Shown piece after piece: positions 3,590 to 42,700 of a stretch of DNA of 64,000 bases; the first letter of the stretch is position 1, and each line of letters begins with the position of its first letter. The notes under the pieces were generated by a model. It ran no database searches and was not told the DNA's origin. It saw only the letters and a list, made by a program, of their open reading frames with translations. A program made the position numbers and the translations under genes. The stretch is from a virus, in the IMG/VR virus record IMGVR_UViG_3300045988_047070. One strand, given 5' to 3'.

Positions 3590-4039
3590 ATGAAGATTCT
3601 ATTTAACTTTAAAAAATCTAGTTGTAAACTTAACTGGATAGGAATATTGAAAGTAGTTTTTGGGTTCAACTTAAAGAAAGCTAAAGCTATTGTGGACTAT
3701 GGAAGTTATACATATATTGTAAATGACTTAAAGAACCCTATAGATATGCAACAGTACTTTATTGATCTTCTTATTAGGATAAATTCTGCATGTATATCCA
3801 GTCTAGACGCAGATCAAAGAAAGGATGAACTTAAGAAGGTAATATCCCTTCCTATATATGACGAAGATGTATCTAGCACTACTCCGGCAGTACAAACAAT
3901 AAATGTACAAGATTTGGATATTGTAAAGGTGGGCTCAGTATATATCCTTACTCAGGAAAGATATGAGAAGCTTTTAAAAGCTGAACAAACATTGTCAAAG
4001 ATAGAAACAGTACTTTACAAATGGAAGAACAATGAATAA
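3590..4039 (+). CDS. hypothetical protein
   Basis: ORF track (3542..4039). I prefer the ATG at 3590 (MKILFNFKK...) because the GTG-extended version overlaps the terminator hairpin. Confidence 0.6.
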   Translation: MKILFNFKKSSCKLNWIGILKVVFGFNLKKAKAIVDYGSYTYIVNDLKNPIDMQQYFIDLLIRINSACISSLDADQRKDELKKVISLPIYDEDVSSTTPAVQTINVQDLDIVKVGSVYILTQERYEKLLKAEQTLSKIETVLYKWKNNE

Positions 4040-4393: not shown

Positions 4394-4472
4394 ATTCTGT
4401 GTAGTTTAAGTGTCTAACACATGGTAGAATCCCCTGCTAAGGGCGAATGCAGGTTCGAATCCTGCCACAGAA
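4394..4472 (+). tRNA. tRNA-like gene, anticodon unresolved (a CTGCTAA loop would read GCU/Ser)
   Basis: The acceptor TTCTGTG/CACAGAA forms 7 bp, and the T arm is GCAGG-TTCGAAT-CCTGC. A D-like arm GTTTAAGTGTCTAAC is present. The central 30 nt contain CCC-CTGCTAA-GGG but do not fold canonically by hand. Confidence 0.55.
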
Positions 4473-4754
4473 ACATTAAAAATTCATTGATGGTTTTATA
4501 GAGAGTTTAAGATTCTCCATTTTAATTTAACACAGCTACTATATACCTATTGTGAAATACGTATATAGTTTCCCTAGAGTAAAAGCAACCTCATCGTAGC
4601 TAACAACAATACTTCATGCGCGTTTGGTTAATATACAAAGTTAGCGGGTTCTAGGGTCTAGTAGGTTTAAATTGTCAGACTGAACGAATGTCATGACTAC
4701 CGAAGCTAATAGCTTTTAAAAACAGTAAATATTAACAATAAAAATATCAAATTT

Positions 4755-5823: not shown

Positions 5824-6048
5824 ATTTAAATCTGTTAAATTTATTTTATTCAGTAACAGTAAGAAAGTAGTTCAATTTCTATGGGTTACATAGAGAAAAG
5901 GTAGAATAGTTTACAACGAATGGTACATATTTTATTTAATAAGCTTGCCTATAAAATAATATGGAACTCTATTAGATAGGTCTTTTGATCTCTATCTAGG
6001 CAGCTCTTGAAACTTAAATAAAAAATGTAGAGTAGATGTAAAAAGATA

Positions 6049-6065
6049 TTAAGTTCGAATCTTAA
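6049..6065 (+). other. isolated tRNA T-arm-like hairpin
   Basis: TTAAG-TTCGAAT-CTTAA. No 5' acceptor partner was found at tRNA distance. Confidence 0.35.
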
Positions 6066-6099
6066 TCTTTCTTATTTTTTAACTAAAAACAATATCACA

Positions 6100-7249: not shown

Positions 7250-7700
7250 AATTCTTTTTGGTTCAGGAGTATACTTTTTATATGCATTGCCTGTGAAGGT
7301 AGTGCATATTTTTACTATTAGATCATCAGAAAATGACAAGCATGTGGGGCGTAAGTAGTATTTTTATGCAGGAGAAGAAGAATGGCAATTGTTCTAATTA
7401 GTACTGATAATTGCAAATACTATGATCGTGCGGACGTTAAAATCATGCCGTTAATAAGAATTGTACTGGCAATACAATTCTGCTACAACGTAAAATATGT
7501 TATATAGCCGATTATAAGAAGTTTTATGTAAGAGTTTTTTAATATTTATTTTGCAAGCATAAAACTTTACGATGACACTTGTTATTAGTTGCTCATAGTA
7601 CAATATGAGTTGTTGTTAATCAACAATCGTTCAATCAAAACCCTCTCCGTAGTTGTACATACGGAGACGTCATCAAATTGTTTAACTAAAAATTATCAAA

Positions 7701-8248: not shown

Positions 8249-8504
8249 TTACCGCCAGTTACTAGTCCTCAAGTCTATAATTCTTAAATTGTTAAGATAT
8301 GGTGGTCATTCCCCTAAAGCATGTTAAACCTAACGCCCTAAGCCCATAAACGGTATGTGAAGATGCATACTACGGGATTGTGTACTTGTACAAATGATAA
8401 TCTCACAGGAGGTTATTAATTATAAGAAGGAGAAGAGGTTCCCTCTGAATAAGAAATAGGAATAAGAGGGCATGCTTATTATTTGAAACTAACACAATTG
8501 GGAT

Positions 8505-9635: not shown

Positions 9636-9847
9636 TATTCACGATATAAGAACTGTGTCGTGTCTTATTAGGTTTATTGGAAACTATTAGGACGAGGGTT
9701 CGATTAAGATGGTCGAGTTTAAATTGGGTGAATTCAGGGAACGCTAAACAAAAATGCTCAGAAATGACATTTTTGCATGCCAATCCTGAGCTAAGCATGT
9801 AGTACACTACATGAAAGTGCAGAGACTACTGGAGAACTAAAGTGTTC

Positions 9848-10372
9848 TTAATTACCAGCTAGAGCGCCCAACCCTTCATTAGAAGGTGAAGAGATAGTCC
9901 AAGATTCACGAAACTTTTTAAGTTTCTCCTCAGAAATGAGGTTCCTATGAACCATTCTGTGGCAATTAGGACATAAAGTTATTAAGTTTGTAATTTCATT
10001 TTTACCACCGTTAGATACAGGTATAATATGATGAACATCACAAGAAGCTTTATTCCAACCGCATATTGCACAAGGTTGTAATAATAGAAAATTGTAAAAT
10101 GATCTAGTAATAGCATTATTAGATTTCATTCTTTTACGATAATCTTTTAATTTACAAGCATTCGTACAATACTTTGCTTTGGAAGATTGCGCTTCAAATT
10201 CCTGTTCACATACAATACATTTACATTTGTATTTCTTTCTATGTAAATTTCTGTATTTAGCAGCACATGAAAGTGAACAAAATTTTGCATTTCCTCTGTT
10301 TACCTCTCGTAAATCAGCTTGGAATTCATTATTACAACATAAACATTCTTTTTTCATACAACCATAACGCAT
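9848..10372 (-). CDS. HNH homing endonuclease, free-standing, antisense to the surrounding genes
   Basis: The HNH core is CDVHHIIPVSNGGKNEITNLITLCPNCHRMVH. The N-terminal part carries multiple CxxC pairs. Confidence 0.85.
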   Translation of the reverse strand: MRYGCMKKECLCCNNEFQADLREVNRGNAKFCSLSCAAKYRNLHRKKYKCKCIVCEQEFEAQSSKAKYCTNACKLKDYRKRMKSNNAITRSFYNFLLLQPCAICGWNKASCDVHHIIPVSNGGKNEITNLITLCPNCHRMVHRNLISEEKLKKFRESWTISSPSNEGLGALAGN

Positions 10373-10645
10373 ATGGAGATAGAATGTTCTAATAACTTAA
10401 AAGAATCTGTCCCTCCAGCTCCACGCTCATAAGAGCTACAAGGGCAAAACAAAACTAGGGTTTTTGATCGTGTTAACCGTGCGCCAAGTTTTTAAATTTT
10501 AGAACGGTTAAAAGGGGCTGCATGGTTTTGACTAGTAGTGAAAGGTAAAATAGGTTCATTGTGTGTTTAAATGGCAATAATTTTGTCACAGACTATACTC
10601 AACTAGCAGTTGCGTAAAGTCACGTGCTAACTACGAAAGTGAGGG

Positions 10646-10711
10646 ATATCTATAGTTTAACGGTAGAACACTGATTATTCAGTAGTGTAGGTTCGAATCC
10701 TACTAGATAAC
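10646..10711 (+). tRNA. tRNA-like element with truncated anticodon arm (66 nt)
   Basis: My fold is ATATCTA-TA-GTTT-AACGGTA-GAAC-ACTGA-TTAT-TCAGT-AGT-GTAGG-TTCGAAT-CCTAC-TAGATAA-C. The acceptor has 6 bp plus an A1/A72 mismatch. The D loop has GG. The middle arm is only 14 nt with a 4-nt loop. Confidence 0.55.
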
Positions 10712-10731: not shown

Positions 10732-11046
10732 ATGGCAAGAGTTAGTTTTTCAGGCTATGTAGCCTATGTTAGTGAGAATCTTCCTGAATCTTGGAAAAGA
10801 GTTGGGGAGAATCATGGAGTACTTAATCAGCTGATAAGTGCAGTTGCTAAGTATTGTTACGAACACCTTTTGACAGGTCGAGAGTTAGTTATGCATTTGA
10901 AAGAGAATACACTAATTGACGCTGCAGACTTCGAAGAAGAGCCTCAAGGGATAGATTGGTGGGTAGATTTAAGTCTAGAAGCCAATATGCTAGAATCACA
11001 TGGTTGTATTCCTACATTTGCAGAAGATGATAAGAGTACCAAGTAA
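10732..11046 (+). CDS. hypothetical protein (104 aa)
   Basis: ORF track. AACTAAAAA lies at 10715-10723. Confidence 0.65.
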   Translation: MARVSFSGYVAYVSENLPESWKRVGENHGVLNQLISAVAKYCYEHLLTGRELVMHLKENTLIDAADFEEEPQGIDWWVDLSLEANMLESHGCIPTFAEDDKSTK

Positions 11047-12024: not shown

Positions 12025-12467
12025 ATTATACAGATCTGTGTGATTATCTAAACGACCGTCTAGTCTTACCCTATCTACCTAAAGTAGGAGAAGACTGGAA
12101 TTTATTTGGTCCAGTCATATCACAGACATATGGACCAGACGGAGTATTCCCTAAGCAATATAATGATAAAGAATTACTAAAATGGATACAACACAGAATC
12201 CAAGTAAGGACATTATTATTATTTGTACAAAGGAAACTCTTTACACACCTTGCCATGTTACACAATACAAGGGCAACGGATGCAGTTCAGATGCGTATTT
12301 TCGTATCTATGCTGAACAAGTTAGGACTACCTAGAATTTATGCTGATGAAATATTTGATAATGTACATCTGCAGTATGACATTAGGAAACCTGTTTTCGA
12401 AGATTATTATCTTATGAAAATATTAGGTTTACCTTTTTGTTTTGAATCTAGGCCTTGTCCTTTTTAA
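11991..12467 (+). CDS. hypothetical protein (158 aa)
   Basis: ORF track. It has a 34-nt overlap with the upstream gene. Confidence 0.6.
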   Translation: MERQKEHSLTVNYTDLCDYLNDRLVLPYLPKVGEDWNLFGPVISQTYGPDGVFPKQYNDKELLKWIQHRIQVRTLLLFVQRKLFTHLAMLHNTRATDAVQMRIFVSMLNKLGLPRIYADEIFDNVHLQYDIRKPVFEDYYLMKILGLPFCFESRPCPF

Positions 12468-12470
12468 GGT

Positions 12471-12503
12471 GTTAGGGGTTCGACTCCCCTAACATTCACT
12501 AAA
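12471..12503 (+). other. T-arm-like hairpin plus ACATTCACTAAA box, copy 2
   Basis: GTTAGGGG-TTCGACT-CCCCTAAC has a TTCGAnT-type loop. It is followed by ACATTCACTAAA at 12492-12503. TGAATCT (12443-12449) could pair with ACATTCA as a mini acceptor stem. Confidence 0.45.
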
Positions 12504-25655: not shown

Positions 25656-26592
25656 ACCATTACCATTCAAACATATATCTGAAGTAACAGAAGAAGCTTT
25701 AGAGTATATTGACATGCGTAGAAAACATGAAATTGAACCACTTAGAACAAGGTGGAAGAAATTCAATAGATTGTGTAATGGTGGCATAGAACAAGGTTGC
25801 ATCTATACAATAGTAGGTGCCTCTGGATCAGGTAAGTCCTCATTTGCAAATATGTTAGAAACTGATTTAATTAGTCTAAATCCTAATAAGAATGTTATAG
25901 TATTATCTTTTTCATTTGAAATGTTATCAAGTAGACAAGTAGGTCGAAAAATAAGCAGTTCAATGCGAAAGACTACTGCAGAATTATATAGTTCTGAATT
26001 TGATCTTCGTGATGAAGAATTTCAGAAGATACAGGAAGAAGCACAACAAATTGCTAAATTTCCTATCTACTATGTAGATTCTGCAGCTACAGTTGATCAG
26101 ATTAAGGATACGATACAGTATTTTCAAGACACTCTTGCTAAAGATAAATGGCTAGTAGTAATGCTAGATCATACACTGCTAGTAAGAGGTAGAAGTGATG
26201 AAAGTGCTTTAAATATTATTAGAGATTTACAGAACTGTTTTATAAATGCAAAAAAAGTAGGTTGCACAAGTATAATTCAGCTCTCACAAATGAACAGGAA
26301 TATTGAATCTCCTGATCGAATTAATAACCCAACATGTCATTATCCAATGCGTAGTGACATTTCTTCCGCTGATGCTATCTTTCAAGGAAGTGATGTTGTA
26401 CTTGTAATCGCCCGTCCAGAAACGTTAGGCTTTGCAGTGTACGGACCTCATCGACTCCCAGTACAAAACAAGATATATCTCCATATTCTAAAGAATAGGG
26501 AAGGACAATTAGCAATTCTTGATTTCGAAAATGATCTAGCACACAACAATATTATCGAAATTGAAAGAGGCATGGAACTAAACCCTACTTAG
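25609..26592 (+). CDS. DnaB-like replicative helicase (RecA-type C-terminal domain)
   Basis: Walker A is VGASGSGKSSFANML and Walker B is VVMLDHTLLV. A DnaB-like IIQLSQMNRN motif is present. The start is uncertain between 25609 and 25636. Confidence 0.8.
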   Translation: MLNKMNKHLMEQHLYKPLPFKHISEVTEEALEYIDMRRKHEIEPLRTRWKKFNRLCNGGIEQGCIYTIVGASGSGKSSFANMLETDLISLNPNKNVIVLSFSFEMLSSRQVGRKISSSMRKTTAELYSSEFDLRDEEFQKIQEEAQQIAKFPIYYVDSAATVDQIKDTIQYFQDTLAKDKWLVVMLDHTLLVRGRSDESALNIIRDLQNCFINAKKVGCTSIIQLSQMNRNIESPDRINNPTCHYPMRSDISSADAIFQGSDVVLVIARPETLGFAVYGPHRLPVQNKIYLHILKNREGQLAILDFENDLAHNNIIEIERGMELNPT

Positions 26593-26615
26593 TTCACAAT
26601 TAAAAAAAGACTGAT

Positions 26616-27125
26616 ATGAAAGATTATATATTCTCTTTTGGTAAATCCAACAACAATTCTTCTTACTTTGGAACAACAACAGGTAATAATTCTGTAAGTA
26701 GTTATACACAAAGCTTGTTTAATAAAGCAATGGGTTTAACTCCGTATTATCAGACTCCGTGTCGGAGTTCATATGATAGTTCGACTCCTTTTTATCTTCT
26801 TCCTTTTGCTGTAGAGAAGAAAAAGAGTCCGTTGTTCGATAGTAACTATCGCTATAAGAAGATTCAGCGTGATCTTGACGTATATGAAGCTTGGAAGAAC
26901 GCTGTAAATCGAATGAATGCATATCGTAATTATTATGGTAATGATAGTTATGAAGCATTGATTAACGGTATTCCGGCTAATTTCTTTAGCGATTTTGTAC
27001 AGATTGGAGATACTGTTATTCCGTTTAATGCAAACCGTAGCTTTTTTAACAGTTTGACTTCGGAGAGAAAAACAACAATTCTTAGTGTATCTATTACTAT
27101 TATCGAAATTTTTGTGATCGAGTAA
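26616..27125 (+). CDS. hypothetical protein (169 aa)
   Basis: ORF track. Confidence 0.55.
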   Translation: MKDYIFSFGKSNNNSSYFGTTTGNNSVSSYTQSLFNKAMGLTPYYQTPCRSSYDSSTPFYLLPFAVEKKKSPLFDSNYRYKKIQRDLDVYEAWKNAVNRMNAYRNYYGNDSYEALINGIPANFFSDFVQIGDTVIPFNANRSFFNSLTSERKTTILSVSITIIEIFVIE

Positions 27126-30827: not shown

Positions 30828-30929
30828 GTATTATCGCACGTAAGTGGATGTACTGTCTGGTAAAGAAATACAAAGTCTGAAAAGGACGACAGAATACCTA
30901 GATTGGAGCTAGTTAATATATACTAGCAT

Positions 30930-30946
30930 GGGGGTTCGAATCCCCC
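30930..30946 (+). other. isolated tRNA T-arm-like hairpin
   Basis: GGGGG-TTCGAAT-CCCCC. No matching 5' acceptor strand for TCTCACA was found within 100 nt upstream. Confidence 0.4.
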
Positions 30947-30958
30947 TCTCACACAAAA

Positions 30959-37400: not shown

Positions 37401-39740
37401 AAGCTCATCAATACTGGCTAATTTATGATTCTTTAGCCAATCTTTTCTAAACTTATATTTATTATTTTGATATACACCATATTTACGATCTCTAATTAAA
37501 TATCCAGTCTTTTTACCATCTACATCCCTTTCAAATAAAAGGTTATGATCTCTTGTTTCTTTTGCTGCTTTATATAATTCAGCATACTTACGATAAACCT
37601 GTTTATGAGTCATAGAGTTAACATCCCCAATAACTTTTCTCAATAGTTTGATAACAAATTTAGGTGAGTTTACAGGAGTAGCAAAGAATCTATGATACCA
37701 ATTTAAATCACCATCAAAAGTAAGCCAGTTCATCAGAGCTCTATCTATATTAGGATCTTTAGCTTCTTCCATTTCAGTACGCAAGAACTTTTCTACTGTT
37801 CTTCTAACTGAGTTCCCATACATGTAACCAATGTTTTCTCTATCTATCATCTTTTTAGATGAGAATTCTCTAATCAATCCATCTACTACAGATAATATAT
37901 TATCAAATTCATTAGTACCTAATATATTTTCATAAATATTCCTATTAAATTCTGTATTTAGCTCATTATAAAGTTTACGTAAATTACTCTCATGTGGGTA
38001 TAAATACTCAGCACCAAAGTTATCTAAAGCAGTCCTTAGTTTAGTAAGTTCTTCAGTATCATTTGTTATCTGTGCAGTACTTATCTTTTCATCAATAGTT
38101 TTGATTACTCTTTCTGCTTCGTCCAGACTGTATATTACATTATCTACATACTCTAGACTACCATTAAGGAAATTAGTAATGTTATTGACACCTTCTACAT
38201 CTGTTATAGAATTCTGGATACTTCTAAGACTAGATAGTAATTTGTCATTACGTAAATTTTCGTTTCTATCAAATTTATCTTCTATAACATTGTACCTTAA
38301 AGAAGCCACACGGTTCTCTGCTGTTTTAACCATATCAGAGAATACAGATCTGAGTTTGATAGAAGCAATTTCTTCACGCTTACTGGCTGCTGGTAAAACA
38401 TCGGGTATATAATCATAAGAATCTTCTCTTTGCTCTAGAGTTTGATATGCATTAAATTCAATAACATTATCTACTATTTTATTAATTAGATCTTGATGAG
38501 TAGTATTTTTACCAAACAATCTCTTAAACCAATCAATAATCCTTTGAATTAATGTTTTTTCTCCTTTTGTAGCAGGGAAGTCAAACATATTGTGAATGAC
38601 CTCAGGATTAGAAAATAGCTCTGCAGCAAACTCATATACATTCTTACTAGCATGGTCATCATGCTTTTCTGCATACTCTTTTTGAATCTTTCTAAGTTCA
38701 TTCGCTGCTTCAGTATTTGAAGCTAACGAGTCTAGAGTAATAGCATGGGCTATTTCATGTAATAATACATTTTCTAATGAACCATATCTACTGAAATCAC
38801 CATTTCTATTTACTACAATCGCGTTAGATTTTCTGTCATATATAGCAGGTGTCCAGTAAGTAGCTTCAGGATACATTTCATTTAATGGTCTATCTATATA
38901 TTCAATAGATACTGGCTGCATATTTATTTTACTAGCAACATCATTGAGTACAGTAGCCATTTCAGAATCCATATTATCTAATAGTTCTTTACTATTACTA
39001 TAAGATTGCATAGATTCTAATTGACTTATATTTTCTGTGTTACTATCTGCTAGATATATGTTATTCTCCTGAGTAGAGAATGTACCTTGATTATCTATTG
39101 ATTTTACATTATTTGGATTATTTATAACATAAATATTTTGATTTAATTCTTGATTGTCATCAATACCGTGAAATATAGCAATATCTGCTTCTTCAGCTGC
39201 ACGATTTATAGTTGCAGTAAAACTTTCTCCTTGTTTTTTTAAATCGTCTTTTGTACCAGTTTTTTCAATTACAGTATTAGCTTTTAAAAATACAGGAAAT
39301 TTATATTCTCTATCTAAAACTGTGCCTTTTTTAGGATTTGCTGTACCAGTAAAGAATAAAGCTTTTTTCGTTCCGTTTTTGATTGTAGAAAAGTAGTTAT
39401 CAAATTCTATAGAAAACTCGTTTATAGGAGAATTGGCGTGATGATATACTACTAAAGGTTCACCATTTTCATCTACTACTTTGGATTCACCAAACCATTC
39501 TTTAAAACTCTTAGAATAAGTTCTAGCTTTAGCTTGAATAGCAGCTACTCTATCACCATTATAATGCTCTAAAAGGTCTGAAAAGAGCTTAGATGGCTCC
39601 CCATTGGGAGCCTTATCTATGCCATTACCATTGTTCTGCGACCATATATGATAAGCCGCTGCTTCACTAGTTGCATTTTTTAATTCTTCAAATTCTCTTG
39701 CAACTTCTTCATTTTTTAAATTAGGACAAATTATTTTCAT
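34449..39740 (-). CDS. giant virion-associated protein (1763 aa) with zincin metallopeptidase motif
   Basis: It is an uninterrupted 5.3-kb ORF. HEIAH lies at residue 328 (nt 38745-38759) in the context LENVLLHEIAHAITLD. It is adjacent to the RNAP-containing giant gene. Confidence 0.75.
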   Translation of the reverse strand: MKIICPNLKNEEVAREFEELKNATSEAAAYHIWSQNNGNGIDKAPNGEPSKLFSDLLEHYNGDRVAAIQAKARTYSKSFKEWFGESKVVDENGEPLVVYHHANSPINEFSIEFDNYFSTIKNGTKKALFFTGTANPKKGTVLDREYKFPVFLKANTVIEKTGTKDDLKKQGESFTATINRAAEEADIAIFHGIDDNQELNQNIYVINNPNNVKSIDNQGTFSTQENNIYLADSNTENISQLESMQSYSNSKELLDNMDSEMATVLNDVASKINMQPVSIEYIDRPLNEMYPEATYWTPAIYDRKSNAIVVNRNGDFSRYGSLENVLLHEIAHAITLDSLASNTEAANELRKIQKEYAEKHDDHASKNVYEFAAELFSNPEVIHNMFDFPATKGEKTLIQRIIDWFKRLFGKNTTHQDLINKIVDNVIEFNAYQTLEQREDSYDYIPDVLPAASKREEIASIKLRSVFSDMVKTAENRVASLRYNVIEDKFDRNENLRNDKLLSSLRSIQNSITDVEGVNNITNFLNGSLEYVDNVIYSLDEAERVIKTIDEKISTAQITNDTEELTKLRTALDNFGAEYLYPHESNLRKLYNELNTEFNRNIYENILGTNEFDNILSVVDGLIREFSSKKMIDRENIGYMYGNSVRRTVEKFLRTEMEEAKDPNIDRALMNWLTFDGDLNWYHRFFATPVNSPKFVIKLLRKVIGDVNSMTHKQVYRKYAELYKAAKETRDHNLLFERDVDGKKTGYLIRDRKYGVYQNNKYKFRKDWLKNHKLASIDELKLNPSLWIQYQKDYNDWKSENCERKYTPEFYAIFTNLSMEANMALSEVNLEIDNILKPYRDSNTNKPRFERMPIDEYQKYIRLLEKKRNLANPYDPITGELKPEGSVEAQIAAELTEAYAKLQEGLESKVDMDAFLEEMERMKNMEGYTPDGSNTLYSAWLERNTRWELTDEFKEKVSRQNKKDYGEIYDRLYQARYNLLRLYRTDKFEPDYTRMPQAVKDKIKELDIAMYNVRKRTKKTASSVRLFKSELSDIAKENGGKSAVSPDDIWVDDKGVKHYASYMTKVIPVRQQYMHRVPNSNWAETSEESKFYNKNYDNSIPETEQPKLSIKEYDNRKAYNAVMRDPALVNLRNVILDVMNEANDKITHSNYKNNYKLPQINGNIFNYWGNRGLITGTRNYMINAFGIQPDDEIHGVKVETRPNGTEINIMPTMYTTMLTDPASGTNDLIGAITKYYRMACNYENKKKVAPQLNLLDSLITNAGSIRQKGFTKPAASSKLADAVHTYIGYHIYGRRDILPEVTLKGYKISLDKVFEHFSRWGRDIGLSWNLRSAISGGVAAWSFYANDAFVRKHYNMHDFTIANSILTKELISLKVASQFGKNQANNKLIGALEYNGLTFNQEEDLSNTNRWRIGRMITRAAEPYSAFKLMSFLPNSAFTVSVYLNYKLIRLEDGQLHFISENDFLDNHFLNKSIEERKAIYRNAKDNLWNAYEMKDGFRVKPKYAPYVTAELEEEITAKLGSISSHAEGMVEEADKSGVHLLPALSTILMFRAFIPKNIENTISPMYWNYQTKELSMGTASAYFYGWKYGSDRNLIKLLRVLTGRNDEKLKELQEQYPDVDVKKQIDLHIRRFNAQIFTYFFWLTIFNLFGMGADDDDYWFTQFLRLELKKISLESGSRYNAMDVFDILNSITPLIQTFVDVNRVINPLSYLSSRKYEEIERGAYKGLKGWQRDFIKVIPILNAYYNMKNPREKLNDMINRIG

Positions 39741-39746
39741 ATATGA

Positions 39747-42700
39747 TTACTTTATACAATGATTCATTTCATCTGTAGGAAATTCATTCTCATTATTGAA
39801 TTCATTAGTCTGTTCAGTCTGTTCAGTCTGTTCATTTTCAGAAGTAGAAGGTTGTTCAATAGTGTTTTCTACCACTTCACCATTTTCATCCATACTAGTA
39901 TCTACTAATGGAGCTGAATCATTTTCAACAGTACTAAACATATAATCAATTGTATTTCTTGAATAAAATACTCCACTTAATGGTTTACCACTTACCTTAT
40001 TAGTTTGTGAATTAATTTTTGGTACAATCTCATTGTTAATAATATCTGGAATATCTTCTAAGAAGTTATTATCATATTTAGCAAATCTTGGAGCAACATT
40101 ATTACCCGGAATAATAGAGAATCTAGATATATATTTACTTCCAGTAGTATATGGAGATAAGTATTCAGATACAAACCCTTTACCACCTTGTCTAAATCCT
40201 TTCTTATTCACTAATATATATAATGGTTTATATGTTTTAGTTTTACCATTATCTTTAATAAATGTACCAACATATTTATATAGATTATATCCACCAGTAG
40301 CATTGTTATCTCTCATTTTAACATATGGATGGTACAATGGAACATCAGTATCATCTTTACAAACATATCTTCTAGAAGATCCTTTAATAGCTACAGGAAC
40401 TAATCTATTACCAACTTTTTCTCTATGAATATAGATACCTTTAGTATTTGTATTTATTACAGGAACCATGTTATTATCTTGCCAGTTATTACGATAGATT
40501 TCATCTACATCATCTGGAGTGAACAGATTAGAGAAATCATCTATATTTTTCTCTAAAGTTCTTACAGTTTCATAATAACCAAGTTCATCTAATACCCTAG
40601 TAGGTATAAAATCAAATAGAGAATTCAAGTGTTTAGTACCATGACCACTAAATACTGCATATCGAACTAAATCATAAGCTAAATCATGTAATTCTTGATT
40701 ATCACTATCTAATAATTCTTGCCAGTATTCTCTAATCTGTCTACTAGCATTAGAACTAATATCATCTGAATAATCTAAACGAACATAATCTATAGCTTTA
40801 CCTGTGGTATCAGTTACACCAGTAATACTATTAAGGAATAGATTACTAATTCTACCATTAGTGACGGAAATGATTGGATATTTACCACCTTTGGAAGCAG
40901 CATCAGAGATAATATCAGTTTTAATCCTATTAATTCTCTTAGCAATGGTATTAGGACCAATGAATAGGTCTCTCAGCTCTTTCATACTATTAATTAATGG
41001 ACTACTAGTACTATCATACAATGCATAAGCTCTCCAGTAAGAATCAATAGCATTAGTAAATGCTGTTACAGCTTGTTTATCTTTTACTTTGGAAAATCCA
41101 CTAGCATTAATAAGAGATCTAAATACCCTATAGTACTCATCAGAAGATTGTATATTAATTTTACCAAGTAAATCCAATGTGAACTTGATACTATTATCTA
41201 TCTTCTTTTGTAAGAATGTTTCCTTAAAGAATTTATTAATCATTTCTGATGTGAAATATGGACTAGTATAACAATCAGCAACATTCTGTAAGAAAGTTCT
41301 CATTTCAATAGAGTTCTTACCAAACTTCTTAGTATCTACTTGAGAAGCCTTTACAAGATCAGACATTGCCTGAGCCATAGGTTCTATTTCTTTGAATAAC
41401 TTATATACAAGTATTTGTCCATAGTAATAATCAAAATCTTTTTCTTTATCATTTGCTTTACGAAGAAGATTTTCTAAATAACCTAACTTTCCTTGTTCAG
41501 GAACCTCAAACAATACTTGATCTGTAACTTGTTCATTCTTAAGCAAGAGATCAAGATTTTCTTTATCCTCATTGGATTTAGCTAAACTCTTTGCTTTAGT
41601 AACAAATTTATCATATACTGCTTTTTCCTTCTCTTGGAATCTTCTATAGAATGGTTTAGTGTTATCTATGCCATAAACTCCCCTACTCTGTATATAATCA
41701 TTTGCAAGATCTTTCATGATCTCTTGTGAAACAAAATACATAGTATTCTTGCCAGCACCATTTCTTAATAAAAAGTTAGTAAGATTATAGGTAAATCCAT
41801 TTACATTTAGTTTGATGATATAGTTATCCTTAGCAACGTCAACGTGAGCACTAATCAATGCAGATAACCAGTCTAGAATATGAATATCATCTACACCACT
41901 TACTTTATGCAAGTTACCTATATTCGGTAAGTACTCTGGAGATTGCATTACTAATTCAACTAACTGACCTAATACATGATGCGGGTTATTTAATGCAAAT
42001 GGCCCAATACCACCTTTACTATCAGCAAAGTCTTGTTTTAAAGTATCTTGATATTCTTCTGTATACTCATATAAAGCAGCATCATTCTTTTTATCAGGGA
42101 AATACTTCTTTACAATACCGTTTTTCATGATGTTAACAGGAACATCCAATGGTCTAGTAGTATCGTGAGTATTCTTAGAATCAAGTAATGAAGCCATAAA
42201 TGTATCAATCAATAGGTTTTCTATAGCACCCTGAGATTGTTCATTCATTGACTTATTATAATCAAATTCTGTCTTAGAAGATATATAAGGATAAACTTTA
42301 TAGGTTGCGTCTGTAACATCATACACAACATTAGAATTCTTACTTTTAAGATAATCATTAACTAATGTTGCCATATTCTGCGTTGATCTTCTTGTAACAG
42401 GCTCACCGTCTTTAATAGCTAAGATTTCATCAGCATATTCATTAAATCCACTTAATGCTAATTCTTTTTCATCTTTAGTTGCTTCTCTTCCGGGTTTATT
42501 ACTTCTACGAGAAGTATAATTATATCTTGTTAAGAATAACTTATCAATATCAAAGTCAGAACCAGTTCTTGCAGTAAACTCATCTGGTAATATAATTATA
42601 TCTCCAGCTTGAGACATTACTACATCTTTAATAGTTAAAGCAGCGATAGAAGACATACCCTGAGTAGGTACACGATATGCCATTGCAGATGGTGAAGCAT

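What the first reader, a model, noticed from the sequence alone, without database searches (positions are those of the whole stretch)
10646..10711. A tRNA-like element has its anticodon arm replaced by a 5-bp, 4-nt-loop hairpin (twin at 21161..21228)
The hand fold gives a convincing acceptor stem (TATCTA/TAGATA), U8-A9, a D arm GTTT-AACGGTA-GAAC with the GG dinucleotide, and a textbook T arm GTAGG-TTCGAAT-CCTAC. Only 17 nt lie between the D and T arms, whereas a normal tRNA has 22-23. Those 17 nt form ACTGA-TTAT-TCAGT, so no 7-nt anticodon loop can be drawn. Position 1/72 is an A/A mismatch and position 73 is C. The element at 21161..21228 has the same architecture with a different sequence (TAACA-TTTT-TGTTA), which argues for a selected design rather than random decay. 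The element ends 21 nt before the ATG at 10732. Possible roles are RNase P/Z punctuation that defines mRNA ends, a CCA-adding or modification enzyme decoy, or an anti-defence mimic.
Basis: seen in the sequence. Interest (0 to 1): 0.85.

Follow-up and report, generated by a model that had tools for sequence, protein, structure and literature searches.

The report
Anticodon-less tRNA-like modules in crAss-like phage
A gut crAss-like phage carries several tRNA-shaped RNA elements between its early genes that keep the parts of a tRNA recognised by the host's tRNA-trimming enzymes but have lost the anticodon loop, so they most likely cut long phage transcripts into pieces rather than decode codons.

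Summary
Both 10646-10711 and 21161-21228 pass Rfam's tRNA threshold (46.9 and 54.1 bits). Each has a normal acceptor stem, D arm and T arm, but a 5-bp/4-nt-loop hairpin where the anticodon arm should be. No tool draws a canonical 7-nt loop.

The window is a Suoliviridae crAss-like phage, 95.5% identical to cr10_1. It holds more such elements: 4395-4473, a probable one at 22147-22224, and weaker T-arm modules before the sigma-factor and primase genes. All lie on the sense strand and between genes.

Element 1 sits 27 nt after the tag stop codon of a phage-encoded permuted tmRNA. At this same site, relatives range from a real tRNA-Ile(GAU), through truncated forms, to a 47-54-nt acceptor-plus-T-arm remnant. 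The acceptor and T arms always persist, with compensatory changes. The hairpin is the most variable part among strains.

Best reading (about 0.55, inferred, not shown): these are tRNA-derived processing signals for host RNase P, RNase Z and the CCA-adding enzyme. They would resemble plant-mitochondrial t-elements or mascRNA. Rival readings are a trans-acting decoy, a purely structural RNA element, and pseudogene decay.

I found no published description of such phage elements. I rate this a new variant of a known kind.

The parts
10646..10711 (+). Element 1, an anticodon-less tRNA-like element. Acceptor stem 10646-10652 with 10704-10710; U8-A9; D arm 10655-10669; substitute hairpin ACTGA-TTAT-TCAGT 10670-10683; T arm 10687-10703.
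   Evidence: Rfam tRNA 46.9 bits. The MFE structure is a cloverleaf. Own model R1 gives 91 bits. Covariation in 13 orthologues.
21161..21228 (+). Element 2, same architecture. Hairpin TAACA-TTTT-TGTTA 21186-21199; T arm 21204-21220. It starts 7 nt after the stop of ORF 20494-21153 and ends 44 nt before the ATG at 21273.
   Evidence: Rfam tRNA 54.1 bits. ARAGORN calls it tRNA-???(tt). The MFE structure is a cloverleaf. The orthologue in L040/L041 has GATTCT-TACG-AGACTC instead.
4395..4473 (+). Element 3. Perfect 7-bp acceptor stem, a D loop carrying an extra mini-hairpin (GTGT-CTA-ACAC), a CCCT-GCTA-AGGG hairpin in place of the anticodon arm, and T arm GCAGG-TTCGAAT-CCTGC.
   Evidence: Rfam tRNA 37.3 bits. 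R1 gives 39 bits. Fold z-score -2.7. Relaxed ARAGORN offers only a sub-threshold alternative without U33 or GG.
22147..22224 (+). Element 4 (probable). Acceptor GGAAGAG/CTCTTCC plus A; 4-bp T arm GCAG-TTCGATT-CTGC; non-canonical inner arms. It ends 19 nt before the DNA polymerase ATG at 22244.
   Evidence: Read from sequence. Four-way-junction MFE structure with z-score -2.5. Only a sub-threshold ARAGORN call with a 3/5 stem, A33 and U37. tRNA-like elements occupy the same pre-polymerase site in cr55_1, cr50_1, cr52_1 and cr4_1.
12444..12498 (+). Weak T-arm module before the sigma-factor gene (CCUU-UUU-AAGG hairpin plus AGGGG-TTCGACT-CCCCT). Possibly a further reduced relative.
   Evidence: R1 gives 12.7 bits. 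T-arm scan. Fold z-score -2.9. A T arm lies at the same place in cr50_1 (L045 15468).
30891..30950 (+). Weak module before the primase gene: a D-arm-like CTAG-ATTGGAG-CTAG and T arm GGGGG-TTCGAAT-CCCCC.
   Evidence: R1 gives 19.4 bits. T arms lie before the primase gene in cr55_1, cr50_1, cr52_1 and cr4_1, some with perfect 7-bp acceptor stems. The primase is identified.
9661..10618 (+). Context: a circularly permuted (two-piece) tmRNA gene. Its tag ORF (GNNFVTDYTQLAVA*) ends at 10618, 27 nt before element 1.
   Evidence: ARAGORN tmRNA* in cr10_1. Rfam tmRNA_permuted in relatives, each followed by the tRNA(-like) hit. Sequence.

Best explanation
The element belongs to a set of tRNA-derived modules built into the early and middle polycistronic transcripts of Suoliviridae crAss-like phages.

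Each module keeps what the host tRNA-maturation enzymes recognise: the acceptor stem stacked on the T arm, and usually the D/T-loop elbow with G18-G19. The anticodon loop, which those enzymes do not need, has been lost.

Proposed mechanism (inferred): host RNase P cuts at the 5' end of the module and RNase Z or trimming enzymes cut after position 73. For element 1, this would release the 3' end of the phage tmRNA coding piece and create a short, unstructured 5' leader for the downstream ORF. It would also free a tRNA-like RNA of about 65 nt that may receive CCA.

What is shown: the fold, its conservation and covariation, its placement, and its reductive evolution from a true tRNA.

What is inferred: cleavage by RNase P/Z, CCA addition, and the effect on gene expression.
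For: 1. The fold passes Rfam's tRNA threshold with a deleted anticodon loop, and no tool gives a 7-nt loop.

2. The pairs covary. In 13 orthologues, 93.8% of cells are paired, with a score of 0.412 against 0.157 in shuffles and at most 0.10 when slid. In 20 distinct sequences from several genera, 94.4% are paired and all 21 pairs change on both sides (this alignment was fitted to the model).

3. The same post-tmRNA site shows a graded series:
- a real tRNA-Ile(GAU) in L024 and a near-canonical one in cr4_1;
- loops of 3-6 nt in the window, cr10_1, the L017 group, cr55_1 and cr50_1;
- only an acceptor stem, a 14-20-nt linker and a T arm in L016/L021 and cr52_1.
cr52_1 keeps the same acceptor sequence (AGTAAGT) as cr4_1. 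The acceptor-T minihelix and an N73-C-A trailer are the parts that are always kept.

4. Among 17 near-identical strains the hairpin is about 6 times more diverse than the rest of the element (pi 0.131 against 0.022 and 0.024). The rest of the element is therefore the more constrained part.

5. Placement: T-arm hairpins number 8 on the sense strand, 1 on the antisense strand and 0.81 expected. In four other genomes they occur at the same sites before the sigma-factor, DNA polymerase and primase genes and after the tmRNA. Almost all lie on the strand of the early genes; the few on the other strand have A/U-rich stems and look like chance. No + strand terminator follows elements 1-3. Hatchet ribozymes and RAGATH RNAs fill neighbouring intergenic gaps.

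6. Established knowledge: RNase P, RNase Z and the CCA-adding enzyme accept acceptor/T-arm minihelices and do not need the anticodon arm. Plant mitochondrial t-elements define mRNA ends in this way (PMC1920247, abstract).
Against: There are no RNA-level data: no mapped ends, no detected 65-nt RNA and no cleavage assay.

The fold energies of elements 1 and 2 alone are unremarkable (z-scores -1.3).

The A1/A72 mismatch or 6-bp acceptor stem, the G at -1 and the absence of an encoded CCA are not ideal for bacterial RNase P.

Processing alone would not require loss of the anticodon loop, because a normal tRNA serves at the same site in L024.

Some sites (before the sigma-factor and primase genes in the window) lack a clear acceptor stem.

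The host and its RNases are not identified.
Confidence: 0.55

Rival explanations
1. Trans-acting tRNA mimic or decoy. The released anticodon-less RNA would bind and titrate a host factor that recognises tRNA shape. Candidates are a tRNA-targeting defence nuclease, modification enzymes, the CCA-adding enzyme, EF-Tu or SmpB. Lacking an anticodon loop, it would be immune to anticodon nucleases and inert in decoding.
For: The full L-shape determinants (G18-G19, a T-loop of sequence TTCGAAT, U8) are kept in elements 1-3. A pure cleavage signal would not strictly need them. The hairpin is the most polymorphic part among near-identical strains, which could reflect an arms race. There are several copies per genome. 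A tRNA-like-domain-only phage RNA has been proposed to titrate SmpB (PMC4131195). Similar truncated elements occur inside tRNA arrays of unrelated phages.
Against: At orthologous sites the D arm can be lost as well (L016/L021 and cr52_1). The element can also be an ordinary tRNA (L024). So the L-shape is not always kept. The hairpin polymorphisms are mostly pair-preserving (A-U to G.U) or lie in the loop, as expected from relaxed constraint. The tight, conserved placement just upstream of ORFs is not needed for a trans-acting RNA. No partner protein is evident nearby.
Confidence: 0.15
2. A purely structural cis element that needs no RNase P/Z. A compact tRNA fold would protect the upstream RNA from 3' exonucleases, insulate the downstream translation start from upstream structure, or pause or terminate the phage RNA polymerase.
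For: The elements end 19-44 nt before start codons and begin shortly after stop codons or the tmRNA. Bacteroidales translation initiation depends on unstructured leaders (my own knowledge). RAGATH-9, of unknown function, sits in the same kind of position, 24 nt before an ORF.
Against: Any stable hairpin would do this job. It does not explain why tRNA-specific features are conserved across genera: the T-loop sequence TTCGAAT, U8, G18-G19, a 7-bp acceptor stem stacked on the T arm, and the N73-CA trailer.
Confidence: 0.12
3. Decaying tRNA pseudogenes with no present function.
For: A true tRNA-Ile occupies the orthologous site in some relatives. The series of deletions looks like reductive decay. 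The hairpin region evolves fast. Some copies (element 4, and those before the sigma-factor and primase genes) are quite degenerate.
Against: The acceptor, D and T stems are maintained by compensatory changes across genera, with 21 of 21 pairs showing double changes. Independent lineages always delete the inner arms and never the acceptor or T arm. Position and strand are conserved in at least five genera. Phage genomes rarely keep neutral DNA. In general, only about 2% of phage tRNA-shaped elements are truncated.
Confidence: 0.1
4. An unusual decoding tRNA, for example one using doublet or other non-triplet decoding, or an anticodon loop restored by RNA editing.
For: ARAGORN reports two-base 'anticodons' for element 2 and, with relaxed settings, for element 1. 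The RefSeq records of relatives annotate orthologues as tRNA-Lys, tRNA-Ser and tRNA-Cys.
Against: Loop length varies (0, 3, 4, 5, 6 and 9 nt) among orthologues. A 4-nt loop cannot present an anticodon. There is no G3:U70 or other anticodon-independent identity set (sequence). There is no sign of stop-codon recoding in the window.
Confidence: 0.03

Closest known systems
Plant mitochondrial t-elements (tRNA-like elements that define mRNA 5' and 3' ends; Forner et al. 2007, PMC1920247) and the mitochondrial tRNA punctuation model
   Same: tRNA-shaped sequences without a decoding role lie between coding regions of polycistronic transcripts. The acceptor and T-arm part is kept. RNase P and RNase Z are expected to create the ends of the flanking RNAs.
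   Different: These elements are in a DNA phage of gut Bacteroidales, not an organelle. They show a graded series from a true tRNA to a minihelix at one orthologous site. They share the operon with Hatchet ribozymes, RAGATH RNAs and a tmRNA. Cleavage has not been shown here.
mascRNA/MALAT1 and MEN-beta tRNA-like 3' modules (Rfam mascRNA-menRNA)
   Same: A tRNA-like cloverleaf with a non-functional anticodon region lies directly downstream of a non-coding RNA. RNase P cleavage creates that RNA's 3' end, and the small RNA receives CCA. Element 1 stands in the same relation to the tmRNA coding piece.
   Different: Those modules are eukaryotic and nuclear, with no sequence relationship to these. 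Here the same module also precedes protein-coding genes. The window had no Rfam hit to that family.
Canonical phage-encoded tRNAs (RF00005)
   Same: Clear homology. The elements score above the tRNA gathering threshold, and a true tRNA-Ile(GAU) occupies the orthologous site in relatives. The same clade also encodes working tRNAs, such as the amber-suppressor tRNA(CUA) in cr52_1 and tRNA-Arg and tRNA-Leu in cr4_1.
   Different: No 7-nt anticodon loop, no U33 or purine 37, and 17-19 nt instead of 22-23 nt between the D and T arms. They cannot decode.
tmRNA tRNA-like domain, including the tRNA-like-domain-only RNA of mycobacteriophage DS6A (PMC4131195)
   Same: A tRNA-like RNA without an anticodon, encoded by a phage. 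Element 1 is physically next to a phage tmRNA.
   Different: Elements 1-3 have a real D stem and G18-G19 and lack G3:U70. The tmRNA's own tRNA-like domain is formed by other sequences: GGGGCUG at about 10513 pairing with CAGCUCC-A at 10416-10423.

Membership tests
Canonical decoding tRNA (Rfam RF00005) | Covariance-model score at or above the gathering threshold (29 bits) | tested here: met
   46.9, 54.1 and 37.3 bits for 10646, 21161 and 4395.
Canonical decoding tRNA (Rfam RF00005) | Acceptor stem, U8, D arm with G18-G19, and T arm with a T54-Psi55-C56-type loop (TTCGAAT) | tested here: met
   Sequence, own scanner and MFE cloverleaf. Element 1 has 6 of 7 acceptor pairs.
Canonical decoding tRNA (Rfam RF00005) | 5-bp anticodon stem closing a 7-nt loop with U33, a 3-nt anticodon and purine 37 | tested here: not met
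   4-nt loops TTAT, TTTT and GCTA. The Rfam alignment deletes loop positions. ARAGORN gives no call or 'tRNA-???' with a 2-base anticodon.
Canonical decoding tRNA (Rfam RF00005) | Aminoacylation and use on the ribosome | not testable with these tools
   No G3:U70 and no anticodon identity elements are visible. An experiment is needed.
tRNA-like processing elements (t-elements, mascRNA type) | tRNA-like fold lacking a functional anticodon but keeping the acceptor/T-arm minihelix | tested here: met
tRNA-like processing elements (t-elements, mascRNA type) | Embedded in a longer transcript at the border between functional RNAs, on the same strand, without a terminator of its own | tested here: met
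   Intergenic and on the sense strand. 27 nt after the tmRNA tag stop codon, and 20 and 44 nt before the ATGs. No + strand terminator follows. Co-transcription itself is inferred.
tRNA-like processing elements (t-elements, mascRNA type) | Cleavage by RNase P at the 5' end and RNase Z at the 3' end, with a small RNA product that may carry CCA | not testable with these tools
   Needs end mapping or in vitro cleavage.
tmRNA tRNA-like domain | G3:U70 alanine identity pair, no D stem, and pairing of the tmRNA 5' and 3' ends | tested here: not met
   The 3:70 pair is A:U in element 1, U:A in element 2 and C:G in element 3. A D stem is present. Rfam's permuted-tmRNA model ends at the tag stop codon, upstream of the element.
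tRNA pseudogene (neutral decay) | No selective maintenance of pairing or position | tested here: not met
   Compensatory changes in all helices. Position is conserved in at least 5 genera.

The most novel reading that the evidence does not exclude
The elements are not only cut sites. After release and CCA addition they would accumulate as a family of anticodon-less tRNA mimics that act in trans. They might soak up a host tRNA-directed defence nuclease or a tRNA-maturation or modification enzyme, or SmpB/EF-Tu in concert with the phage's own tmRNA. On this reading, the strain-level hypervariability of the substitute hairpin reflects an arms race.
Probability: 0.15. Interest if true: 0.85.

Novelty: new variant of a known kind. 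Interest (0 to 1): 0.62.

Why it matters
crAss-like phages are among the most abundant viruses of the human gut, and how they express their genes is poorly known.

If these modules are RNase P/Z punctuation marks, Suoliviridae early operons would be processed by a mix of self-cleaving ribozymes (Hatchet), unexplained RAGATH RNAs and host tRNA-processing enzymes. This would be an organelle-like strategy not yet described for a phage, as far as my searches show.

It would give a testable function to the RAGATH and Hatchet neighbourhood. It would explain how the 3' end of a two-piece phage tmRNA could be made. It would also flag misannotations in RefSeq (the 'tRNA-Lys', 'tRNA-Ser' and 'tRNA-Cys' genes of cr55_1 and cr50_1, and the tmRNA spans of cr10_1, cr50_1 and probably cr52_1, which extend over the tRNA-like element).

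The series from true tRNA to minihelix at one orthologous site is a natural experiment on the minimal substrate that tRNA-processing enzymes accept in vivo.

Tried and rejected
- Canonical tRNA. I tried ARAGORN at default and relaxed thresholds and with introns allowed, and Rfam at both gathering and E-value thresholds. None gives a 7-nt loop for elements 1 and 2.
- Split or intron-containing tRNA. The nearby group I intron interrupts the tmRNA T-loop, not this element.
- Part of the tmRNA. Rejected because the element has no G3:U70, has a D stem, and the Rfam tmRNA model ends upstream of it.
- Suppressor tRNA or recoding. Relaxed ARAGORN called element 4 'tRNA-Pyl(cta)', but that fold has a 3/5 stem, A33 and U37. 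Reading through TAG, TGA or TAA does not rescue any gene in the window.
- Independent gene with its own terminator. No + strand terminator follows the elements. The sigma-70-type promoter scan found fewer sites than in shuffles and does not suit Bacteroidales anyway.
- Ancestral isotype from the shared D-arm sequence. Uninformative: the same D arm occurs in phage tRNA-Gln, -Trp, -Asn and others.
- Literature. Nine full-text searches found no description of anticodon-less tRNA-like elements in phages. The library lacks many subscription papers, so this is not proof of novelty.
- PHROGs scans of the flanking ORFs gave no function for the genes next to elements 1 and 2.

Full report

Yes. The sequence at 10646-10711 is ATATCTA TA GTTT AACGGTA GAAC ACTGA TTAT TCAGT AGT GTAGG TTCGAAT CCTAC TAGATAA C. 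The sequence at 21161-21228 is AGTGTAA TA GTTT AATGGTA GAAC G TAACA TTTT TGTTA AAGT GAGAG TTCGAAT CTCTC TTACACA C.

Rfam's tRNA model (RF00005, gathering score 29) matches both over its full length, at 46.9 bits (E=7.3e-7) and 54.1 bits (E=7.5e-9). Both alignments show a deletion inside the anticodon loop.

ARAGORN at default settings finds only the second element and labels it 'tRNA-??? (tt)'. With thresholds lowered to 60-80% it gives element 1 only as 'tRNA-?(ta)', with a 6-nt loop and a distorted T arm.

My scanner looks for a T arm, an acceptor stem, U8 and a D arm containing GG. It measures 17 and 19 nt between the D and T stems. Among 398 unselected tRNA-shaped elements in 0.98 Mb of assorted phage contigs, the mode is 22-23 nt and only about 2% have 20 nt or fewer.

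**2. What the window is, and what else is there**

The window is a crAss-like phage of the family Suoliviridae. It is 95.5% identical to uncultured phage cr10_1 (Canhaevirus, NC_055875).

The region is the early/middle, replication-side operon. It encodes a sigma factor, a DNA polymerase, a primase and clamp-loader-like ATPases. It is dense in structured RNAs: a Hatchet ribozyme at 7322-7448, RAGATH-9 at 8302-8480, and a group I intron hit at 9637-9920.

A third Rfam tRNA hit at 4395-4473 (37.3 bits) has the same defect. A CCCT-GCTA-AGGG hairpin replaces the anticodon arm, and the D loop carries an extra mini-hairpin.

A fourth, more degenerate cloverleaf lies at 22147-22224. It has a perfect acceptor stem (GGAAGAG/CTCTTCC plus A), a 4-bp T arm and odd inner arms, and ends 19 nt before the DNA polymerase ATG.

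A model built from element-1 orthologues and run without filters gives only these strong hits. It also gives weak hits that bear T arms, at 12444-12498 (before the sigma-factor gene), 30891-30950 (before the primase gene) and 6040-6073.

T-arm hairpins (5 bp plus a TTCRANY loop) number 8 on the + strand and 1 on the - strand. Shuffles give a mean of 0.81 and a maximum of 4. ARAGORN finds no canonical tRNA in the window.

**3. Context of element 1: a phage tmRNA**

Directly upstream lies a circularly permuted (two-piece) tmRNA gene. In cr10_1, ARAGORN calls a permuted tmRNA with tag GNNFVTDYTQLAVA*. In relatives, Rfam's tmRNA_permuted model hits the equivalent locus, and each hit is followed within about 30 nt by the tRNA(-like) hit.

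In the window the parts are as follows:
- Tag ORF: 10574-10618.
- 5' end of the coding piece: GGGGCTGCATGGTTTTGAC, at about 10513.
- 3' end of the acceptor piece: CCCTCCAGCTCCA, at 10411-10423. The pairing GGGGCUG/CAGCUCC gives G3:U70.

So element 1 begins 27 nt after the tag stop codon, at the place where the 3' end of the coding piece must be made. It is not part of the tmRNA's tRNA-like domain: it has a D stem, lacks G3:U70, and the Rfam model ends before it.

**4. Comparative evidence**

*(a) Covariation.* Thirteen distinct orthologues of element 1 share the same geometry. On the full cloverleaf, 93.8% of cells are paired and 8 pairs change on both sides. The covariation score is 0.412, against 0.157 in shuffles (0 of 500 reach it) and at most 0.10 when partners are slid. 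The short hairpin has two pairs with double changes.

A broader alignment fitted to the model, with 20 distinct sequences from several genera, gives 94.4% paired. All 21 pairs change on both sides, and the score is 0.796 against 0.199. Because the alignment was fitted to the structure, it leans towards it.

*(b) The substitute arm differs between lineages at the same site:*

| Lineage | Sequence in place of the anticodon arm |
|---|---|
| window | ACTGA-TTAT-TCAGT |
| cr10_1 | loop TTGT instead of TTAT |
| a strain variant | GCTGG-TTAT-CCAGT |
| L017 group | ATGC-TTAT-GCAT |
| cr55_1 | CGTAAT-TTT-ATTACG (annotated 'tRNA-Lys') |
| cr50_1 | CTTGG-ATTTTA-CCAAG |

*(c) A graded series at the post-tmRNA site.*
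- L024 has a normal tRNA-Ile(GAU), and cr4_1 a near-canonical one.
- L016 and L021, whose sigma factors are 86-87% identical to the window's, keep only CTATCTAG, a 20-nt linker, a T arm and CTAGATAG.
- cr52_1 keeps AGTAAGT, a 14-nt linker, GGGG-TTCGAAT-CCCC and ACTTACT-A-CAA. This is the same acceptor sequence as in the full-size cr4_1 element.

What is never lost is the acceptor stem, the T arm and an N73-C-A trailer.

*(d) Other conserved sites.*
- Before the DNA polymerase gene: cr55_1 and L040 have a tRNA with a conserved 7-nt loop; cr50_1 has CAAGA-TTTT-TCTTG (annotated 'tRNA-Ser'); cr52_1 has a 58-nt element with no anticodon arm at all; cr4_1 has an 83-nt module.
- T arms also lie before the sigma-factor and primase genes in these genomes, on the strand of the early genes. 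The few T-arm hairpins on the other strand have A/U-rich stems and look like chance. Several of the sense-strand modules are closed by perfect 7-bp acceptor stems around inner domains of 66-124 nt.

*(e) Diversity among strains.* Among 17 near-identical strains, nucleotide diversity is 0.131 in the hairpin. It is 0.022 and 0.024 in the rest of the element, 0.049 in the downstream ORF and 0.066 in the tmRNA. The changes are mostly A-U to G.U or lie in the loop.

*(f) Terminators.* No + strand terminator follows elements 1-3.

*(g) The clade has ordinary tRNAs too.* cr52_1 carries an amber-suppressor tRNA(CUA) before the terminase gene, and cr4_1 carries tRNA-Arg and tRNA-Leu. The window shows no sign of stop-codon recoding.

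**5. How it most likely works**

The parts under selection are those that RNase P, RNase Z and the CCA-adding enzyme recognise, according to established biochemistry: the acceptor stem stacked on the T arm, helped by the D/T-loop elbow. The part needed only for decoding is free to shrink, vary or vanish.

The elements sit inside operons at borders: between tmRNA and ORF, between one ORF and the next, and just before the sigma-factor, polymerase and primase genes. Self-cleaving ribozymes fill similar gaps nearby.

The most economical reading is that these are tRNA-derived punctuation marks cut by host tRNA-processing enzymes. For element 1, cleavage would make the 3' end of the tmRNA coding piece and a short leader for ORF 10732-11046.

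This mechanism is inferred from anatomy and comparison. No cleavage is shown. I put it at about 0.55.

Rivals:
- A trans-acting decoy (0.15). It is favoured by retention of the full elbow and by the polymorphic hairpin. It is weakened by lineages that also lose the D arm and by the conserved cis placement.
- A purely structural stabiliser or insulator (0.12). It does not explain the tRNA-specific conserved features.
- Neutral pseudogene decay (0.10). It is contradicted by covariation and by the repeated, directional pattern of loss.
- An exotic decoding tRNA (0.03).

**6. Comparison with what is known**

Functionally, the closest systems are plant-mitochondrial t-elements and tRNA punctuation (PMC1920247), and the mascRNA module that forms the MALAT1 3' end (my own knowledge). 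By descent, the elements are phage tRNA genes that fail the defining anticodon-loop test, so they should not be filed as tRNAs.

Anticodon-truncated tRNA-like elements also turn up sporadically in unrelated IMG/VR phages:
- L076: CC-GTAA-GG, between ORFs.
- L111/L154: CCAGA-TTAT-TCTGG.
- L049 and L085: inside tRNA arrays.

In general they are rare, about 2%.

Nine full-text searches found no description of such phage elements. The library is incomplete.

**7. Verdict**

I classify it as a new variant of a known kind: tRNA-like processing modules, here in a phage and caught in the act of reduction from a true tRNA. Interest 0.62.

The main gap is RNA-level evidence. End mapping in infected cells or metatranscriptomes would settle it.

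Noticed in passing
window 9661-10618 (+): The phage encodes a circularly permuted (two-piece) tmRNA. Acceptor-piece T arm at about 9694, acceptor 3' strand CAGCTCC-A at 10416-10423, coding piece starting GGGGCTG at about 10513, tag ORF GNNFVTDYTQLAVA* at 10574-10618. Relatives hit Rfam tmRNA_permuted (RF04321).
   Followed up: partly
window 9705-10409 (+), HNH ORF 9848-10372 (-): A group I intron of about 705 nt, carrying an antisense HNH endonuclease ORF, splits the T-loop of the tmRNA acceptor piece (GAGGGTTCGAT | intron | TCCCTC). A U precedes the 5' splice site and a G ends the intron. cr10_1 has the intron-less allele. From memory, a group I intron in a tmRNA T-loop is known from Clostridium botulinum.
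   Followed up: partly
window 7322-7448 and 8302-8480 (+): A Hatchet ribozyme (102.7 bits) and RAGATH-9 RNA (94.8 bits) lie in neighbouring intergenic gaps. RAGATH-9 ends 24 nt before ORF 8505. Relatives carry up to three Hatchet copies plus RAGATH-7, -20 and -22 in the same early region. So much of the 'RAGATH' neighbourhood appears to be the early operons of Suoliviridae crAss-like phages.
   Followed up: partly
L021 3757-3878 within 3722-3992: The Rfam family RAGATH-7-assoc hits inside the permuted tmRNA locus of a relative. That motif may be part of the phage tmRNA gene, possibly its intervening segment, which holds a second T-arm-like hairpin AGAGG-TTCGACT-CCTCT in cr10_1 and cr50_1.
   Followed up: no
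window 22244-25027 (+): The DNA polymerase gene is split. The N-terminal part is 22244-23503, an endonuclease VII/HNH-like ORF is 23600-24220, and the C-terminal part is 24332-25027. This suggests an intron or a free-standing homing endonuclease insertion. Rfam called no intron there.
   Followed up: partly
window 10717 (insertion point right after element 1): 5 of 17 near-identical strains, including cr10_1, carry a cassette of about 280 nt (the small 'lipoprotein' ORF of cr10_1) inserted immediately 3' of the tRNA-like element. The element's 3' border is therefore a junction for gene gain and loss.
   Followed up: no
L043 44230-44300 (cr55_1) and L040/L041 4878-4948: The pre-polymerase 'tRNA-Val' has an initiator-like acceptor stem (AGCGGGA/TCCCGCA, with an A1.A72 mismatch) and an invariant loop UUCACGA (anticodon CAC, which reads GUG) on a covarying stem. 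It may be an unusual functional tRNA.
   Followed up: no
window 6040-6073 (+), within 5974-6072: An acceptor/T-arm-like minihelix (AAAGA..UUAAG-UUCGAAU-CUUAA-UCUUU) is followed by a run of T. Its T stem covaries among strains (TTAAG/CTTAA, CTAAG/CTTGG, CTAAG/CTTAG). It could be a terminator built from a T arm or a minimal tRNA-like module.
   Followed up: no
RefSeq records NC_055869 (33901-33971), NC_055868 (34414-34488, 50085-50164, tmRNA 39374-39869), NC_055875 (tmRNA 26352-26737), NC_055888 (tmRNA 81171-81551): There are likely misannotations. 'tRNA-Lys', 'tRNA-Cys' and 'tRNA-Ser' have loops of 3-5, 9 and 4 nt. The ARAGORN-derived tmRNA spans in cr10_1 and cr50_1 run over the downstream tRNA-like element, and the cr52_1 span probably does too.
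   Followed up: partly
IMG/VR loci L076 1419-1462, L049 (- strand), L085 (- strand), L092, L111/L154, L126, L055: Unrelated phage contigs also carry tRNA-shaped elements whose anticodon arm is reduced to a stem of 2-5 bp with a 3-4-nt loop, or to an 11-nt linker. Some stand alone between ORFs and some lie inside tRNA arrays.
   Followed up: partly
window 4409-4422; L017 80-173 and L019 353-444: Element 3 and similar elements in the L017 group carry an extra hairpin inside the D loop (GTGT-CTA-ACAC against ACACTAT-TA-TAGTGT, with different sequences but the same position). This gives a five-armed tRNA-like shape.
   Followed up: no
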